From: an uncultured delta proteobacterium
GTDB lineage: Bacteria; Desulfobacterota; Binatia; UBA9968
Assembly: GCA_963745835.1 (NCBI GenBank)
Contig: CAVUZH010000016.1
Span: 32,001-96,000 of the forward strand
DNA length: 64,000 nt
Direction of reading: 5' to 3'
This document shows, piece after piece, positions 56,853 through 60,671 of this stretch; positions within the stretch are counted from its first letter, which is position 1; each line of letters begins with the position of its first letter. Under the pieces are notes generated by a model that did no database searches, was not told where the DNA came from, and worked only from the letters and a program-made list of their open reading frames with translations. Position numbers and translations under genes: made by a program.

Positions 56853-57848
56853 ATGCCTCGTGAAACGACACTCTCATTGCGCAGCTATATCTCGAGAACT
56901 CTCCTGCTGATTTTATTCAGCTCGTGCAGTGTGCCGGCGCCCTCCGGTTTGGTTCAATTGCGCCCTTTTCAAATCGAGTCGAAGGAGAACCAACGGACGG
57001 AAATCGATGGGCTGATACTGTTGGGCGCTTTCGAACTCCGCTCGCGACATCCGCAATTCGGCGGCATTTCCGGACTGAGCATAGGCGCCGACGGCAGGCT
57101 TTACGCCGTCTCCGATCGCGGCTATTGGCTTTCTGCTCGCATGCGGCATGACAGCGAAGGCGCCCTAGTAGACCTGCTCGATTGGCAAATCAAACCCATT
57201 TTAACCCCGGAAAGAACTCCCACCGATGGACTGCTGACGGACTCGGAAGCGCTCGCCGGCGCGCCGGACGGGTCGTTCATCGTCGGCTTTGAACAGACCC
57301 ATCGCTTGTGGCGCTATCCGCCGCCGCCGATGACGTTCGATTCCCCGGCGCAGGCAATCCCAGCTCCGCACGATCTTGCCAAAGCGCCGCGCAACGGCGG
57401 TCTTGAATGCGTTACCGTTCTCCCCAGCGGAGAAATTCTCACCCTTGCGGAAGAACTGCAAAACAAAGACGGCAGTTTCAAAGGCTGGCTCATCGATGAC
57501 CAGCAAGCGGTGGAGTTATCTTACTTGCCAAGCGCCGGCTTTCGAGCATCGGATTGCGCGGCGTTGCCAAATGGCGATGTCATTGTCCTCGAACGGCACT
57601 TATCGATATTTCTCGCCTTTTCGGCGCGCCTGAAGCTCATTCGAGCTGCGAGCATACGGCCGCATGCTATGCTCAACGGTGAAGATCTGCTCCGGCTCGA
57701 TCCGCCGCTTCGGCTCGACAATTTCGAGGGTATCGCAATACAGGAGGATGCAGCCGGAACTTTGATCTACCTCATCTCGGACAATAACTTCCAGCCGTTC
57801 CAGCGCACACTGCTGTTGCAATTTCGCCTTCCTCGGACCGCTTACTAA
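56853..57848 (+). CDS. esterase-like activity of phytase family lipoprotein (beta-propeller)
   Basis: FGGISGL, SDRG, DSEAL, NGGLE, DNFEGI, ISDNNF..QRTLLLQF. Confidence 0.8.
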   Translation: MPRETTLSLRSYISRTLLLILFSSCSVPAPSGLVQLRPFQIESKENQRTEIDGLILLGAFELRSRHPQFGGISGLSIGADGRLYAVSDRGYWLSARMRHDSEGALVDLLDWQIKPILTPERTPTDGLLTDSEALAGAPDGSFIVGFEQTHRLWRYPPPPMTFDSPAQAIPAPHDLAKAPRNGGLECVTVLPSGEILTLAEELQNKDGSFKGWLIDDQQAVELSYLPSAGFRASDCAALPNGDVIVLERHLSIFLAFSARLKLIRAASIRPHAMLNGEDLLRLDPPLRLDNFEGIAIQEDAAGTLIYLISDNNFQPFQRTLLLQFRLPRTAY

Positions 57849-57876
57849 AGTAATCAGAGGTTGAAAAACTCTCTTC

Positions 57877-57930
57877 ACGGGCTGTTCAAAAGATTTCAGA
57901 GCCGAGGCGCCCGACGTTCGATGAGCTGAG
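57877..57930. repeat. left part of a ~125-bp hairpin/MITE-like repeat interrupted by the IS110
   Basis: Begins ACGGGCTGTTCAAAA, an inverted match to TTTTCAACAGCCTGT at 59487-59501; ends at the AG core 57929-57930. Confidence 0.75.
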
Positions 57931-57945
57931 ACTTTCTATGAGCCC

Positions 57946-57951
57946 TGTCAA
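57946..57951 (-). promoter_or_regulatory. outward-facing -35 box (TTGACA) in the IS right end
   Basis: TTGACA lies 15 nt from the core; pairs with the -10 at the left end on circularisation. Confidence 0.8.
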
Positions 57952-57969
57952 GCCCCATCGATTTTATTT

Positions 57970-59195
57970 TCACGCTGCCTGGCGCAATTTCTGTCGTGCA
58001 ATGTTGGCCAAGTGGTGGGTTTCGTCATAAGGTTTATGATCTCTCCACAGCACAAAAATAATTTTCAACCACTTCGCTCCCAAAGCCCGAAGTGCTTGGG
58101 GATGGCTGTGTCCTCTGGCCCGTTGGTCTCGATAAAAGGCCTTGGCCCACTGGCTGCGGTTTATCGAGATAAAAGCAAACCAGTAGACGGCGTAGCGCAA
58201 TTGTTTGTTACAAGAAAACCGAAACTCAACAATGCGACTCTTGCCACTCGATTTGGTCACCGGGACTGCTCCCGCTTCGGCCTGAAGGTGCTTAAAGGAT
58301 TCCCATCGAGCTGGGGCATCTCCCAGCTCGGCCCAAAGGGCCGGCAGCAACGTTCCGCTTTTCCCTCCCGGCAGCTTCTCCACAAGCCTAGCGGCCGGTG
58401 TAGAGGCGAAAAAACGTTCGACCTTGTCGCTGTACTTCTCAATGCTTCGCAGCGAAGCCTCAAGCTGATCGAGCAGCACTTCGAGCAACTGCGCCTTGGC
58501 TCTGACGACGTGATCGGGAACCACAAGTTGCGGCTTTTTCAGCTCCTCCCACCGCTTGGCACTGCGTGCTTTACCAAGATGAGGATGCTGCTGGGCAAAT
58601 CGGCTCCACTGCTTACGGCTAAGCTTCGAGAGCGCCGTTGGCGTCGAATACTGCTTGAGAAAGTCTACTGCTATACGAGCCTCCAGATCCCCAAAAACCT
58701 CCACCGGTCGAGGATAGTACTCCTTGAGAGTGAACTTGAGCTGATTGAGCAAACGCGTTTTGTGACGCACCATTCTTTGCTGATCCCGGGTAAGCAGCTT
58801 AAGCTCCTGGGCCTGCTCAGAGCTTGGCCGAAGGGGCCTGAGGTGACCGTGGTCGGTTCGAAGAAAGTCCGACAGTACCCAAGCGTCAAAGGGGTCGCTC
58901 TTGGATTGGCTCATGCGAAACCGGTCCCGAGCACGATCCAAGACCTTGGGATTGACCGGATAAACCACCCCCCATGATCCAAAAGAAAATCCACAATGCG
59001 CCCGTGGGGCTTCTCGATCGCCGCCCACAGCTCCACCTGCTCAGCTCTGCTCTGATTGAGCCAATGCGCCAACTCCGCCAGCCCTTCAGGGTTCTCTTGG
59101 ACTTTCATCTCCATTACCTTTATCCCGTTCTCGTCGCCACCGTAGAGCTGGTGTACTCGGTCTGCCCAATCTACTCCCAGATAGTATCGTGGCAC
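57970..59195 (-). CDS. IS110 family transposase/bridge recombinase (~408 aa, 1-nt frameshift near 58970)
   Basis: GVDWA, AIEK, KSDPFDA (DEDD RuvC-like); C-terminal AGAVPVTKSSGKS with the putative catalytic Ser; GTG start with AAGGAGG RBS. Confidence 0.92.
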
Positions 59196-59224
59196 TTTGT
59201 TGTCCTCCTTCTTTGCTTACTTTA

Positions 59225-59417
59225 CTCCAATAGCTGTGAACGGAACGTTAGCCTTATATCGGTCCTCGACGGGACAACTTTCCATAGAACTTTTGACTCC
59301 GTTCTTTTGCTGGTCGGGACAGTCTCAGCTAGATCCTCTAACGGAATCGCGTACGTAAGGTCCTCTAACCAGCAAGCTTCTTGGACGACAATGCAATATC
59401 TATCATCGAGTATGACT
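59225..59417 (-). ncRNA. putative bridge RNA (5' hairpin, target-binding loop, donor-binding loop); ends approximate
   Basis: Two stem-closed internal loops carrying 6-10-nt matches to the target flanks and element ends in the expected orientations. Confidence 0.82.
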
Positions 59418-59422
59418 ACAGT

Positions 59423-59428
59423 AATATA
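59423..59428 (-). promoter_or_regulatory. -10 box (TATATT) at the IS left end
   Basis: Immediately inside the core; gives TTGACA-17-TATATT in the circle junction. Confidence 0.8.
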
Positions 59429-59430
59429 AG

Positions 59431-59501
59431 GCGTACGCTTCAGTACGTTGAAGCGAGTCGGGCGAGCGCAACGAAGGCTATAAGTCTTTTCAACAGCCTG
59501 T
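59431..59501. repeat. right part of the interrupted ~125-bp repeat
   Basis: GCGTACGCTTCAGTACG internal hairpin; terminal TTTTCAACAGCCTGT. Confidence 0.75.
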
Positions 59502-59570
59502 CAGTGCGTTGACACTAATAGGTTTCCTAGAGTAAGCCTGAGCCAAATCGACCATCACTGTGTTCTCAGC

Positions 59571-60671
59571 ATGCTCGATAACCAACCGACCTATATTTTC
59601 GCCGCGGAGTATCTGAAGAACTTTTCCGCTGCGGTATTCATGCACTTCGGCATTTCGGCAGAAGATGCCGCGCAAGCGGCGGATGTGTTGGCAACAAGCG
59701 ATTTACGCGGCATCGACTCTCATGGCGTCGCGCGCCTGCACACCTACTTCGAAATGCTCGATTTAGGCAGGATCAATCCCAGCCCCAACATCCGAATCGT
59801 CCGCGAGAAACACAGCGTCGCAACGATCGACGGGGACAACGGTTTGGGTCTGGTGGTGGCGCCCAAGGCCAATGCCATCGCCATGGACAAAGCCGAACAA
59901 CATGGCTCGGGCTGGGTGAGCGTCTGCAACACCAATCATTTCGGCATCGCCGGCTACTATCCTTTACAGGCGCTCAAGCGCGATCTCATCGGCTGGGCGA
60001 TGACCAACACGACCAAACTAGTGGCGCCGCTGTGGGGCGCGGAGAGAATGCTGGGAACGAATCCGATCGCCATTGCTTTTCCGGGATACGAAGAGCCGCC
60101 CATCGTCATCGACATGGCGACCAGCGCCGTGGCTTACGGCAAAATCGAAATCGCGCTGCGCAAAAAGGAATCCGTTCCGAAAGGCTGGATCGTCGACCGA
60201 GACGGCCGCGACACGACCAATCCGCAAGAGATGATCGACGGCGGCGCGCAACTGCCGCTCGGCTCGGAAAGAGATTTAGGCGGTCACAAAGGTTATGCCC
60301 TGGCCGCGATGGTGGACATTCTCTGCTGCGTGTTGAGCGGCGCCAACTGGGGTCCGTTCGCCCCTCCCTTTGCGCTGCGGCAGGAGATTCCCGAGCGCTC
60401 GGTCGGCAAAGGCATCGGACATTTCTTCGGCGCCATGCAGATCGACGGCTTCATCGACAAAGACGAATTTAAAAAGCAGATCGATGAATGGATTCGAATC
60501 TTTCGCAGCACCAAACCCGCTCCCGGCACCAACGGCCCCCTGATCCCTGGCGACCCGGAGCGAGAGGCGGAAGCCATCAGAAGCAAAGAAGGAATTCCGT
60601 TACTCAAACCAGTTATTGATGACTTGATGGATATATCGAGGAAGACCGGGATACCGTTTGAGATGAAATGA
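59571..60671 (+). CDS. Ldh_2 (malate/L-lactate/sulfolactate dehydrogenase) family oxidoreductase
   Basis: DLRGIDSHGV, NHFGIAG, GTNPIA, DMATS, GHKGY, IPGDPE. Confidence 0.9.
   Translation: MLDNQPTYIFAAEYLKNFSAAVFMHFGISAEDAAQAADVLATSDLRGIDSHGVARLHTYFEMLDLGRINPSPNIRIVREKHSVATIDGDNGLGLVVAPKANAIAMDKAEQHGSGWVSVCNTNHFGIAGYYPLQALKRDLIGWAMTNTTKLVAPLWGAERMLGTNPIAIAFPGYEEPPIVIDMATSAVAYGKIEIALRKKESVPKGWIVDRDGRDTTNPQEMIDGGAQLPLGSERDLGGHKGYALAAMVDILCCVLSGANWGPFAPPFALRQEIPERSVGKGIGHFFGAMQIDGFIDKDEFKKQIDEWIRIFRSTKPAPGTNGPLIPGDPEREAEAIRSKEGIPLLKPVIDDLMDISRKTGIPFEMK

What the first reader, a model, noticed from the sequence alone, without database searches (positions are those of the whole stretch)
59225..59417. 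Readable bridge RNA in an IS110 left end: guides match both target and donor
Seen: on the transposase strand the empty target is CGTACGC-CT-CAGCT and the circle donor is AGAAAGT-CT-TATAT. Loop 1 (stem 59307-14/59368-75) holds CGTACGC (59349-55, identical to the left target) and AGCTGAG (59324-30, reverse complement of core + right target). Loop 2 (stem 59238-44/59298-304) holds GGAAAGT (59277-83, 6 exact + 1 wobble to the left donor) and ATATAAG (59253-59, reverse complement of core + right donor). An outer stem (59226-34/59376-85) closes both loops. Established: this is the LTG/RTG/LDG/RDG architecture of IS621-type bridge RNAs. Inference: a natural, probably uncharacterised, programmable RNA-guided recombinase (~408 aa) with its own specificity. 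The mechanism class is known; novelty lies in this member.
Basis: partly seen in the sequence, partly recalled or inferred. Interest (0 to 1): 0.92.

Follow-up and report, generated by a model that had tools for sequence, protein, structure and literature searches.

The report
Natural bridge RNA in IS110 element
This is a real but ordinary member of the known IS110 jumping genes, which use a short "bridge" RNA to match both their own ends and their landing site; this copy has a broken enzyme gene, while two intact copies sit elsewhere in the genome.

Summary
A 1502-bp IS110-family element lies on the minus strand at 57929-59430. No shuffle of 30,000 gave all four.

The empty target is seen directly. 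Sixteen unoccupied copies of the 14-mer (0.07 expected) all lie in one ~120-nt hairpin repeat, and all three element copies sit at that spot.

Among 69 non-redundant relatives the target loop tracks the flanks. The right guide matches 5/5 in 48 and 4/5 in 21. The left guide matches at least 6/7 in 49. No shuffle of 20,000 reached these values. Stems are kept.

The recombinase has both IS110 domains, the catalytic residues and the IS621 fold.

Additions: both handshake dinucleotides fit, the left donor guide is 9 nt, the left guides skip the CT core, and the circle junction would form TTGACA-17-TATATT.

The window copy is frameshifted; two intact 408-aa copies exist.

Verdict: a new member of a known kind. 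In passing, an antisense reading frame spanning the whole element is kept open by codon avoidance, like hed of IS900.

The parts
57929..59430 (-). IS110-family element, 1502 bp counted with a CT core at each end
   Evidence: Junctions read. Three copies of 1502 bp are aligned. The empty sites carry a single CT.
59431..59437 (-). Left target (LT) CGTACGC in the flank
57924..57928 (-). Right target (RT) CAGCT in the flank
59431..59498 (.). One half of the ~120-nt hairpin (REP-like) repeat that holds the target, including a small stem-loop just 5' of LT
   Evidence: blastn gave 119 HSPs, 104 of them at least 100 nt. An empty copy folds with z = -5.05.
57868..57928 (.). The other half of the same repeat
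57946..57951 (-). TTGACA in the right end: the -35 box of the promoter that a circle junction would form
   Evidence: TTGACA, 17 nt, TATATT across the joined ends.
59423..59428 (-). TATATT at the start of the left end: the -10 box of the junction promoter, and also the right donor (RD)
   Evidence: No sigma-70-like site was found in the integrated state.
59226..59416 (-). Predicted bridge RNA. The 5' end is inferred from the -10 box; the 3' end is taken as the end of the outer stem
   Evidence: One RNA-library contig of a relative covers 59220-59408 (weak).
59376..59385 (-). Outer stem, 5' strand. It pairs with 59226-59234 and closes both arms
   Evidence: Helix 1: 83.6% of cells paired, 4 pairs with changes on both sides.
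59307..59375 (-). Target-binding arm: stem 59375-59368/59314-59307, GGAC/GUCC (59363-59360/59320-59317), internal loop and inner hairpin (59348-59332)
   Evidence: helices 2 and 3.
59349..59355 (-). Left target guide CGUACGC, identical to LT and so complementary to the bottom strand. It is followed by GA, not by the core
59324..59330 (-). Right target guide AGCUG plus AG, the reverse complement of core plus RT
59322..59323 (-). Handshake dinucleotide AC of the target loop, complementary to positions 6-7 (GT) of the left donor
   Evidence: read against the IS621 rule in PMC11208158.
59238..59304 (-). Donor-binding arm: stem 59304-59298/59244-59238, GUU/AAC (59290-59288/59249-59247), internal loop and inner hairpin (59275-59262)
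   Evidence: helices 4-6.
59277..59285 (-). Left donor guide AUGGAAAGU, against ATAGAAAGT at the right end (57939-57931): 8 exact plus 1 G:T wobble
59253..59259 (-). Right donor guide AUAUA plus AG, the reverse complement of core plus RD
59251..59252 (-). Handshake dinucleotide GC of the donor loop, complementary to positions 6-7 (GC) of LT
   Evidence: LT position 7 is C in 66 of 69 relatives.
58911..59195 (-). N-terminal frame of the recombinase (GTG start at 59195; GGAGG at 59208-59204). It ends early because of the frameshift
   Evidence: PF01548, profile positions 1-70.
57970..59028 (-). C-terminal frame of the recombinase
   Evidence: PF01548 positions 73-155 and PF02371. One base is missing near 58970 compared with the two intact copies.
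58012..59429 (+). Antisense open frame. It is split in two in this copy (58012-58977 and 58974-59429); in the intact copies it is one frame of 472 aa from the first GTG

Best explanation
The region is the bridge RNA gene of an IS110-group insertion sequence.

Shown:
- A 1502-bp element bounded by CT is present in three copies, each at the same position of one hairpin repeat.
- Its 235-nt left end can fold into two arms closed by an outer stem.
- The 5' arm holds a left guide identical to the 7 nt left of the insertion point. It also holds a right guide complementary to CT plus the 5 nt to the right.
- The 3' arm holds the corresponding guides for the element's own joined ends.
- In relatives the first arm changes with the insertion site, while the second arm and the element ends stay constant.

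Inferred from the IS621 work (PMC11208160, PMC11208158):
- Excision joins the ends into a circle.
- This creates a TTGACA-17-TATATT promoter that transcribes the left end.
- A tetramer of the 408-aa DEDD/Ser recombinase binds the RNA.
- The target loop pairs with both strands of CGTACGC-CT-CAGCT, and the donor loop pairs with AGAAAGT-CT-TATAT.
- The top strands are cut after CT and exchanged, helped by the handshake dinucleotides AC and GC. The Holliday junction is then resolved.

The window copy has an intact RNA gene identical to those of the other copies, but a frameshifted recombinase gene. It could move only with enzyme supplied by the two intact copies.
For: 1. Four guide words lie in the right order and polarity. 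No shuffle of 30,000 gave all four.
2. All 3 copies lie at perfect-match sites. Sixteen more perfect sites are empty, against 0.07 expected. The genome also has 19 sites with 1 mismatch and 70 with 2 mismatches.
3. Covariation. A first test used 14 non-redundant elements from genomes, and 0 of 50,000 shuffles of flank assignment reached the observed value. With 80 metagenome loci added, 96 of 99 loci had the anchor, 79 were usable and 69 were non-redundant.
   - RT matched 5/5 in 48 and 4/5 in 21.
   - LT matched 7/7 in 21, 6/7 in 28, 5/7 in 19 and 4/7 in 1.
   - Shuffled means were 2.42 and 4.01, and 0 of 20,000 shuffles reached either observed value.
   - There are 23 distinct right-guide words.
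4. L060 and L061 are 97% identical in protein and carry one change in each target guide. Together these fit the repeat variant that has 10 copies in this genome.
5. Structure on 74 sequences: 94.0% of cells are paired, against 26-51% when the partners are slid. Eleven pairs have changes on both sides (0 of 500 shuffles).
6. The donor loop and the element ends are conserved while the target loop varies, as described for IS110 (PMC11208160 passage).
7. Recombinase:
   - PF01548 and PF02371.
   - NF033542 'IS110 family RNA-guided transposase', 149.1 bits against a cutoff of 140.
   - D9, E61, D101, D104 and S317 match IS621 D11, E60, D102, D105 and S241.
   - The best fold matches are IS621 and ISCro4, E about 1e-12.
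8. The junction promoter TTGACA-17-TATATT. Both hexamers and both element ends are kept in the relatives (alignment).
9. Contigs from RNA libraries of 3 studies hold relatives of the element at 90-99% identity, left end included.
Against: - Nothing shows the RNA, the circle or recombination for this element. The RNA-library contigs are unstranded, come from relatives and may hold DNA.
- No promoter-like site is found upstream in the integrated state.
- The single-sequence fold is no more stable than shuffles (z = -0.68).
- No Rfam family matches.
- The left guides do not pair with the CT core, unlike IS621, where the core is part of all four pairings.
- Left-guide matches are imperfect in many relatives (20 of 69 at 5/7 or less), and their register against the inner hairpin varies by up to 3 nt.
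- Relatives share ancestry, so the shuffle tests overstate independence.
- Most helix pairs are invariant, so structural covariation is modest.
- Four loci (L044, L045, L078, L132) lack a recognisable 5' half of the target arm and were left out.
Confidence: 0.9

Rival explanations
1. The system is real in kind but no longer mobile in this genome. On this view the three copies are relics, and the guide matches only record a past insertion specificity.
For: - The window copy is frameshifted.
- A truncated left-end fragment lies at C14:580170-580290.
- There are only 3 copies against 16 empty perfect sites.
- No promoter is found in the integrated state.
Against: - Two copies keep a full 415-codon open frame.
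- The copies differ at only 12 alignment columns of about 1500, and the left ends are identical over the first 246 nt. This points to recent spread.
- All catalytic residues are kept.
Confidence: 0.15
2. The complementary words act as DNA rather than RNA. They would be sub-terminal sites read by the protein, or would pair as single strands, as in IS200/IS605 elements. Alternatively the left end is conserved only as a 5' leader of the recombinase gene.
For: No transcript was shown here. The words lie in DNA that could also form the same hairpins.
Against: - The polarity follows the IS621 scheme, for which RNA was shown to be required: left guides identical to the top strand, right guides complementary to it (PMC11208160, passages).
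- NCBIfam places the protein in the RNA-guided family.
- The fold matches the RNA-bound IS621 and ISCro4 structures.
- The junction promoter faces into the left end.
Confidence: 0.03
3. The matches are chance, or the left end merely contains a captured copy of the target repeat.
For: The target words are short (7 nt), and one of them is allowed a mismatch.
Against: - No shuffle of 30,000 gave all four words.
- The two target words sit 18 nt apart and in opposite orientation, which is not the arrangement in the repeat.
- Covariation holds across 23 different guide words.
Confidence: 0.01

Closest known systems
IS621 of E. coli and ISCro4 (bridge recombinase plus bridge RNA; PMC11208160, PMC11208158; PDB 8wt6, 9t56)
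   Same: - CT core at both ends and a long left end.
- A 5' hairpin followed by a variable target loop and a conserved donor loop.
- Left guides read the bottom strand and right guides read the top strand.
- A handshake dinucleotide sits directly 3' of each right guide.
- The promoter is rebuilt at the circle junction.
- The recombinase is a DEDD RuvC-like domain plus a Ser-bearing Tnp domain, and the best fold matches are these two structures.
- The target lies in a repeated extragenic hairpin.
   Different: - Sequence relation is weak. PDB hits have E 7e-9 and 4e-8, mainly over the Tnp domain, and the fold alignment shows 17-18% identity.
- The protein is 408 aa against chains of 328 and 341 aa. 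The extra ~75 residues fall between the two matched stretches, at residues ~156-243.
- The left guides cover none of the core here, and 0 to 2 core positions across the clade.
- The left donor guide is 9 nt without the core.
- A helix with some covariation closes both arms. Whether IS621 has such a helix was not checked in a call.
ISPpu10 of Pseudomonas putida (bioRxiv 10.64898/2026.03.19.712850; abstract and outline only)
   Same: All insertions fall in copies of one intergenic repeat that has a stem-loop just 5' of the target. Here a 7-bp stem with a 6-nt loop ends at the first base of LT.
   Different: Whether the stem-loop matters for this element was not tested. The two were not compared by sequence.
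IS900 of Mycobacterium avium subsp. paratuberculosis and its hed ORF (PMC8141618 Introduction, citing Doran et al. 1997, which I did not see)
   Same: An IS110-family element with an open frame on the complementary strand that spans nearly the whole element. Here 80 of 83 relatives have an antisense frame of at least 400 codons.
   Different: - No sequence comparison with hed was made.
- This genome has moderate G+C, so the frame cannot be put down to codon bias.
- It runs over the bridge RNA gene, a link found in none of the 12 papers listed.

Membership tests
IS110 family, IS110 group: bridge recombinase with bridge RNA (IS621 type) | Recombinase with a DEDD RuvC-like domain (PF01548) and a Tnp domain (PF02371) | tested here: met
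   - both domains are found, and PF01548 is split by the frameshift in the window copy.
- NF033542 scores 149.1 bits against a cutoff of 140 on the intact copy.
IS110 family, IS110 group: bridge recombinase with bridge RNA (IS621 type) | Catalytic D, E, D, D and Ser | tested here: met
   D9, E61, D101, D104 and S317 are present. D101, D104 and S317 align with IS621 D102, D105 and S241; the chain numbering is offset by 2. E61 is assigned from the IE motif, because HMMER placed that column 2 residues off.
IS110 family, IS110 group: bridge recombinase with bridge RNA (IS621 type) | Fold of the solved bridge recombinases | tested here: met
   The model has mean pLDDT 71.9. The top 10 PDB matches are IS621 and ISCro4 chains with E 8e-13 to 3e-11 and TM 0.42-0.54. 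Nop5 and TasR follow.
IS110 family, IS110 group: bridge recombinase with bridge RNA (IS621 type) | No terminal inverted repeats; a CT core at both junctions and a single CT in the empty site | tested here: met
   The joints skip 1500 nt with 2 shared letters. Inverted repeats at the ends were judged by eye only.
IS110 family, IS110 group: bridge recombinase with bridge RNA (IS621 type) | Left end much longer than the right end, with the RNA in the left end (this separates the IS110 group from IS1111) | tested here: met
   The left end is 235 nt (59430-59196). The right end is about 40 nt, from the stop codon near 57970 to 57929.
IS110 family, IS110 group: bridge recombinase with bridge RNA (IS621 type) | Two internal loops, each with a left guide (same sense as the top strand) and a right guide (complementary), target loop first | tested here: met
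IS110 family, IS110 group: bridge recombinase with bridge RNA (IS621 type) | The target loop covaries with insertion sites across orthologues, while the donor loop matches the element ends | tested here: met
   (0 of 50,000 and 0 of 20,000 shuffles). One search shows the donor words and ends to be nearly invariant.
IS110 family, IS110 group: bridge recombinase with bridge RNA (IS621 type) | [quoted passage not shown] | tested here: not met
   RTG and RDG end in AG. LTG is followed by GA and LDG by UG. In the clade, elements with LT matching at least 6/7 are followed by:
- CT in 17
- C plus another base in 25
- GA or AA in 6
- TA in 1
. This is a detail of IS621, not a family criterion.
IS110 family, IS110 group: bridge recombinase with bridge RNA (IS621 type) | Handshake guides 3' of RTG and RDG pair with positions 6-7 of the other DNA | tested here: met
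   AC pairs with donor GT, and GC pairs with target GC. The rule comes from PMC11208158. LT position 7 is C in 66 of 69 relatives.
IS110 family, IS110 group: bridge recombinase with bridge RNA (IS621 type) | The circle junction rebuilds a sigma-70 promoter facing the left end | tested here: met
   TTGACA-17-TATATT. This rests on sequence only; no circle was observed.
IS110 family, IS110 group: bridge recombinase with bridge RNA (IS621 type) | The RNA is made, binds the recombinase and is needed for recombination | not testable with these tools
   Only RNA-library contigs of relatives were seen.
IS110 family, IS110 group: bridge recombinase with bridge RNA (IS621 type) | Match to a curated RNA family | tested here: inconclusive
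   No Rfam 15 match at E up to 1 in 57500-60000. Whether Rfam holds a bridge RNA model at all was not established.
hed-like antisense ORF of IS900-type elements | An open frame on the complementary strand that spans nearly the whole element | tested here: met
   The median is 486 codons. In most relatives the edges lie 0-13 nt from the right end and 2-62 nt from the left end.
hed-like antisense ORF of IS900-type elements | No start codon or ribosome-binding site of its own; expression depends on the host context | not tested
   In the intact copy the first GTG lies about 80 nt inside the right end. I did not look for ribosome-binding sites or host context.
hed-like antisense ORF of IS900-type elements | Sequence relation to the IS900 hed product | not tested
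   No IS900 sequence was fetched. Pfam finds nothing in the 472-aa product.

The most novel reading that the evidence does not exclude
The clade may be more than a two-part system. It may be a distinct subtype of bridge element that carries a third, overlapping product.

The subtype features:
- Left guides that stop short of the core.
- An outer helix that closes both arms.
- A recombinase about 75 residues longer than IS621.

The proposed third product is a protein read from the antisense strand across the whole element, including the DNA of the bridge RNA.

What the evidence shows is selection to keep that frame open. The three sense codons that read as stops on the other strand number 26 among roughly 34,000 recombinase codons of 83 relatives. 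That is about 0.08%, against about 2.1% in the host's long frames. Neighbouring NTA and NCA codons are used at 9-19%.

What the frame does is open. It could be a hed-like protein, or translation that affects the RNA or the recombinase.
Probability: 0.3. Interest if true: 0.7.

Novelty: new member of a known kind. Interest (0 to 1): 0.4.

Why it matters
This is a clean natural example of a bridge RNA system from uncultivated soil bacteria. The record titles of its relatives name Candidatus Binatia and similar bins.

What makes it a useful test case:
- Donor and target are fully defined.
- Two intact recombinase genes are available.
- About a hundred natural target variants sit in the same genome.
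- Dozens of naturally reprogrammed relatives are at hand.

It is only distantly related to IS621 and ISCro4. It could therefore serve to test which rules of bridge recombination are general: core pairing by the left guides, handshake pairing, and the role of a target stem-loop.

It does not change what is known. Bridge RNAs were already predicted for most IS110 elements.

The antisense frame kept open across the recombinase gene and the RNA gene is the one feature that current models of these elements do not explain.

Tried and rejected
- Rfam search of 57500-60000 at E up to 1: no match.
- Single-sequence fold: the stems are recovered, but z is only -0.68, so stability alone says nothing.
- RNAalifold on whole left ends: it paired the first 8 nt of the left end with the right donor guide. 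That is the guide-donor complementarity itself, not an RNA helix. I therefore cut off the first 10 nt (A3) and counted a structure that I named myself. Because that structure was derived from these sequences, the slid controls flatter it somewhat.
- Promoter scan of the integrated left junction: none found.
- RNA runs: only contigs were available, so they give no starts, strands or levels.
  - One 215-nt contig of X18 lies on 59220-59408. It has 10 loose letters at one end that look to me like the end of a sequencing adapter (recalled, not tested), and 16 diverged letters at the other end. It is a hint of a discrete left-end RNA at best.
  - Parts without cover mean nothing.
- DNA runs: 14 rows from 6 studies of soil or rhizosphere hold half or more of the sampled words.
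- Third-position test for a second coding constraint: identity at four-fold sites is 0.47 against 0.28 expected, at about 70% protein identity. This is compatible with ordinary unsaturated divergence, so it is inconclusive.
- One search reported '2 of 1504' long frames without antisense-stop codons. This came after an overlap filter by GC3 that can drop the true frame, so I discard it. The unfiltered count is 9 of 1526, two of which are the intact element copies. Of the other seven, one is an FAD-binding oxidoreductase, one has only odd partial hits, and five have no Pfam match and may be shadow frames themselves.
- Four distant IS110 genes on plasmids (about 34-36% identity) also have antisense frames of 409-614 codons. 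Their G+C is 62-72%, so this says little.
- The genome search in 40 relatives: 8 have a match at E up to 1e-40, a patchy spread as expected for a mobile element. One of the 8 is the unpublished G012. Nothing but this tally rests on it.
- The plasmid search found nothing above 36.2% identity among the 12 rows listed, and all 1228 records fall in the under-60% band.
- Literature: no paper holds both 'Binatia' and 'IS110'. Supplementary tables of PMC11208160 and PMC11208158, which list thousands of IS110 loci, were closed and may contain this clade.
- I did not build a covariance model. The anchor-based comparison already answered the question.
Full report
**What is there.** The finding lies in the 5' non-coding part of an IS110-family element on the minus strand of the window, at 57929-59430 (1502 bp counted with a CT at each end).
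- The recombinase gene starts with GTG at 59195.
- In this copy it is split into two frames, 58911-59195 and 57970-59028. Together they carry PF01548 and PF02371.
- The genome (7.28 Mb, 25 contigs) has two more copies, at C3:1197565-1199120 and C14:273430-274981. Both have an unbroken 415-codon frame that gives a 408-aa protein.
- The three copies differ at 12 alignment columns. The window copy lacks one base near 58970, which is the frameshift. The first 246 nt, meaning the whole left end, are identical in all three.
- No other relative of this recombinase is found in the genome at E up to 1e-5.

**The observation.**
- Shuffling the left end 30,000 times never produced all four words, and produced three of them 14 times.
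- The empty target does not have to be inferred. The 14-mer made of left flank, CT and right flank occurs 16 times unoccupied in the genome, against 0.07 expected. Each time it sits at the same position of a ~120-nt repeat that folds into a long hairpin (z = -5.05).
- The three element copies sit at that position in three different copies of the repeat, with unrelated DNA beyond it. They are therefore separate insertions.
- The genome also holds 19 sites with one mismatch and 70 with two mismatches to the 14-mer. All three full copies are at perfect sites.
- A truncated left end (about the first 92 nt) sits in a variant repeat at C14:580170-580290.
- Contigs from RNA libraries join the two flanks exactly across the element with two shared letters. 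This is the empty form in relatives.

**Anatomy of the RNA.** The description below is read on the transposase strand and supported by the alignment of 74 left ends.
- A 5' hairpin comes first.
- An outer stem follows (59385-59376 with 59234-59226).
- Inside the outer stem is the target arm. It has an 8-bp stem, then GGAC/GUCC, then an internal loop around a small hairpin.
- Next is the donor arm. It has a 7-8-bp stem, a 3-bp helix, then an internal loop around a GUCC/GGAC hairpin.
- In each loop the 5' strand holds the left guide.
- The 3' strand holds the right guide. It ends in AG, which pairs with the CT core, and is followed directly by two bases.
- In IS621 those two bases are the handshake guides (PMC11208158, passages).

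The handshake bases fit here. AC in the target loop is complementary to positions 6-7 (GT) of the left donor. GC in the donor loop is complementary to positions 6-7 (GC) of the left target.

Nine bases (59285-59277) match the last nine of the right end, with one G:T wobble. That wobble is shared by the four closest relatives examined, L031, L060, L061 and L063.

Unlike IS621, where the core is part of all four pairings (PMC11208160, passage), the two left guides stop at the core here.

- One scan of genome contigs gave 17 full-length relatives at 48-95% protein identity. One scan of metagenome contigs gave 80 more at 67-97%.
- I located guides and flanks with anchors sliced from the window file.
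- Of the 99 sequences examined (the window's own plus 98 loci), 96 had the anchor next to the right target guide.
- Seventeen more were dropped because a contig end cut a flank or an anchor was missing. These include L044, L045, L078 and L132, whose target arm lacks its 5' half. This left 79 usable loci, of which 69 were non-redundant.
- The five bases of the right guide are the exact complement of the five bases right of the core in 48 loci, and differ at one base in 21.
- The seven bases left of the core are found in the left-guide window at 7/7 in 21 loci, 6/7 in 28, 5/7 in 19 and 4/7 in 1.
- After shuffling which flank goes with which element, the means fall from 4.70 to 2.42 and from 6.00 to 4.01. 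None of 20,000 shuffles reaches either observed value.
- A smaller first test on 14 elements gave 0 of 50,000.
- There are 23 different right-guide words. Relatedness inflates such tests, but that many different word pairs cannot come from shared descent alone.
- L060 and L061 are 97% identical in protein and have one base changed in each target guide. The two changes together spell the most common variant of the repeat, which has 10 copies in this genome.
- The donor guides and both element ends are nearly invariant. This is the pattern described for IS110 elements.
- The register of the left guide against the inner hairpin varies. It covers both core bases in some relatives, one in most, and none in the window's type.

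**Structure.** For the structure I named on A3, 94.0% of 3172 cells form standard pairs, against 26-51% with the 3' partners slid by 1-3 columns. Eleven of 43 pairs show changes on both sides (0 of 500 shuffles). These include pairs in the outer stem, both arm stems and the 3-bp helix. Many pairs never vary, so the support is real but modest.

**The enzyme.**
- NCBIfam's model 'IS110 family RNA-guided transposase' matches above its cutoff.
- The catalytic residues of IS621 have counterparts: D9, E61, D101, D104 and S317.
- A model built from 8 sequences (mean pLDDT 71.9) finds the IS621 and ISCro4 recombinases as its ten best PDB matches, followed by Nop5 proteins and TasR.
- By sequence the relation to those two is weak (E about 1e-8).
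- Nothing in the plasmid collection exceeds 36.2% identity among the rows listed.
- About 75 extra residues lie between the two matched domains.

**Expression.** Joining the ends gives TTGACA, 17 nt, TATATT, with the -35 box in the right end and the -10 box at the start of the left end. Both are kept in the relatives. No such site exists at the integrated left junction. This fits the report that IS621 loci express little bridge RNA in the chromosome (PMC13626964, abstract). Direct evidence here is weak: contigs from RNA libraries of three studies hold close relatives of the element, left end included.

**Comparison and novelty.** This is an IS110-group bridge system, and every defining feature that sequence can test is met. 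The differences from IS621 are details:
- left guides that do not cover the core,
- a 9-nt left donor guide,
- an outer closing helix,
- a longer protein.

Bridge RNAs were predicted in 85.7% of catalogued IS110 elements, and covariation was shown over thousands of loci (PMC11208160). This is therefore a new member of a known kind.

- In the intact copies the strand opposite the recombinase gene is open for 472 codons from the first GTG. The frame runs on through the whole bridge RNA gene.
- Among the 83 relatives with an intact recombinase frame, 80 have an antisense frame of at least 400 codons (median 486). The next-best antisense frame has a median of 95.
- The open frame is the codon-aligned one, in which only the sense codons TTA, CTA and TCA give stops.
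- Those three codons are almost absent from the recombinase genes. TTA occurs 9 times and CTA 12 times among 3606 Leu codons. TCA occurs 5 times among 1964 Ser codons.
- In contrast, GTA, ATA, CCA, ACA and GCA make up 9-19% of their families.
- In the host's long frames the three codons make up 7.4%, 7.0% and 10.7% of their families, so 8.7 would be expected in 408 codons.
- Only 9 of 1526 frames of at least 400 codons have none, and two of those are the intact element copies.
- IS900, another IS110 member, is described as having such an ORF, hed. It spans the whole element, has no start signals of its own, and its function is unknown (PMC8141618, Introduction).
- None of the 12 bridge-RNA papers listed contains 'hed gene' or 'antisense ORF'.
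- I could not tell whether a protein is made. Pfam finds nothing in it, and the third-position test was inconclusive.

**Limits.**
- No experiment and no raw reads were available.
- The RNA ends are inferred.
- The relatives come from metagenomes.

Noticed in passing
window 58012-59429 (+); intact form at L002:1607-3025 (+): A whole-element antisense open frame is kept open by near-absence of the sense codons TTA, CTA and TCA. It is at least 400 codons long in 80 of 83 relatives (median 486). It overlaps both the recombinase gene and the bridge RNA gene. It resembles the hed ORF of IS900, whose function is unknown.
   Followed up: partly
window 57868-57928 and 59431-59498; an empty copy at L007:1458-1592: A ~120-nt hairpin repeat gives 119 blastn HSPs in the genome, 104 of them at least 100 nt. 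It serves as the landing site. A 7-bp stem with a 6-nt loop lies directly 5' of the left target, and the loop repeats part of the target word. The setting is similar to that reported for ISPpu10 (abstract only).
   Followed up: partly
L004:1500-1660 (G000:C14:580170-580290): A truncated left end of the element (about its first 92 nt, up to the inner hairpin of the target arm) sits in a variant copy of the repeat and is followed by unrelated DNA. It looks like a deletion relic.
   Followed up: partly
L060, L061 (metagenome loci): These relatives are 97% identical in protein and have one base changed in each target guide. Together the changes match the variant AGTACGC-CT-CCGCT, which has 10 copies in the window's genome. 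It is a natural case of retargeting within one repeat family.
   Followed up: partly
L044, L045, L078, L132: In these relatives the 5' half of the target arm and the usual left-end start cannot be recognised, yet the right guide, the donor arm and the right end are intact. They may be rearranged or shortened left ends.
   Followed up: no
window 59383-59391 with 59200-59210 (-): In the minimum-free-energy fold of the window's left end, UGUCGUCC upstream of the target arm pairs with the GGAGGACA that holds the recombinase's ribosome-binding site. This competes with the outer stem. I did not examine it in relatives.
   Followed up: no
window 57970: Besides the frameshift near 58970, the window copy has one extra base at the very end of the recombinase gene compared with the two intact copies.
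   Followed up: no
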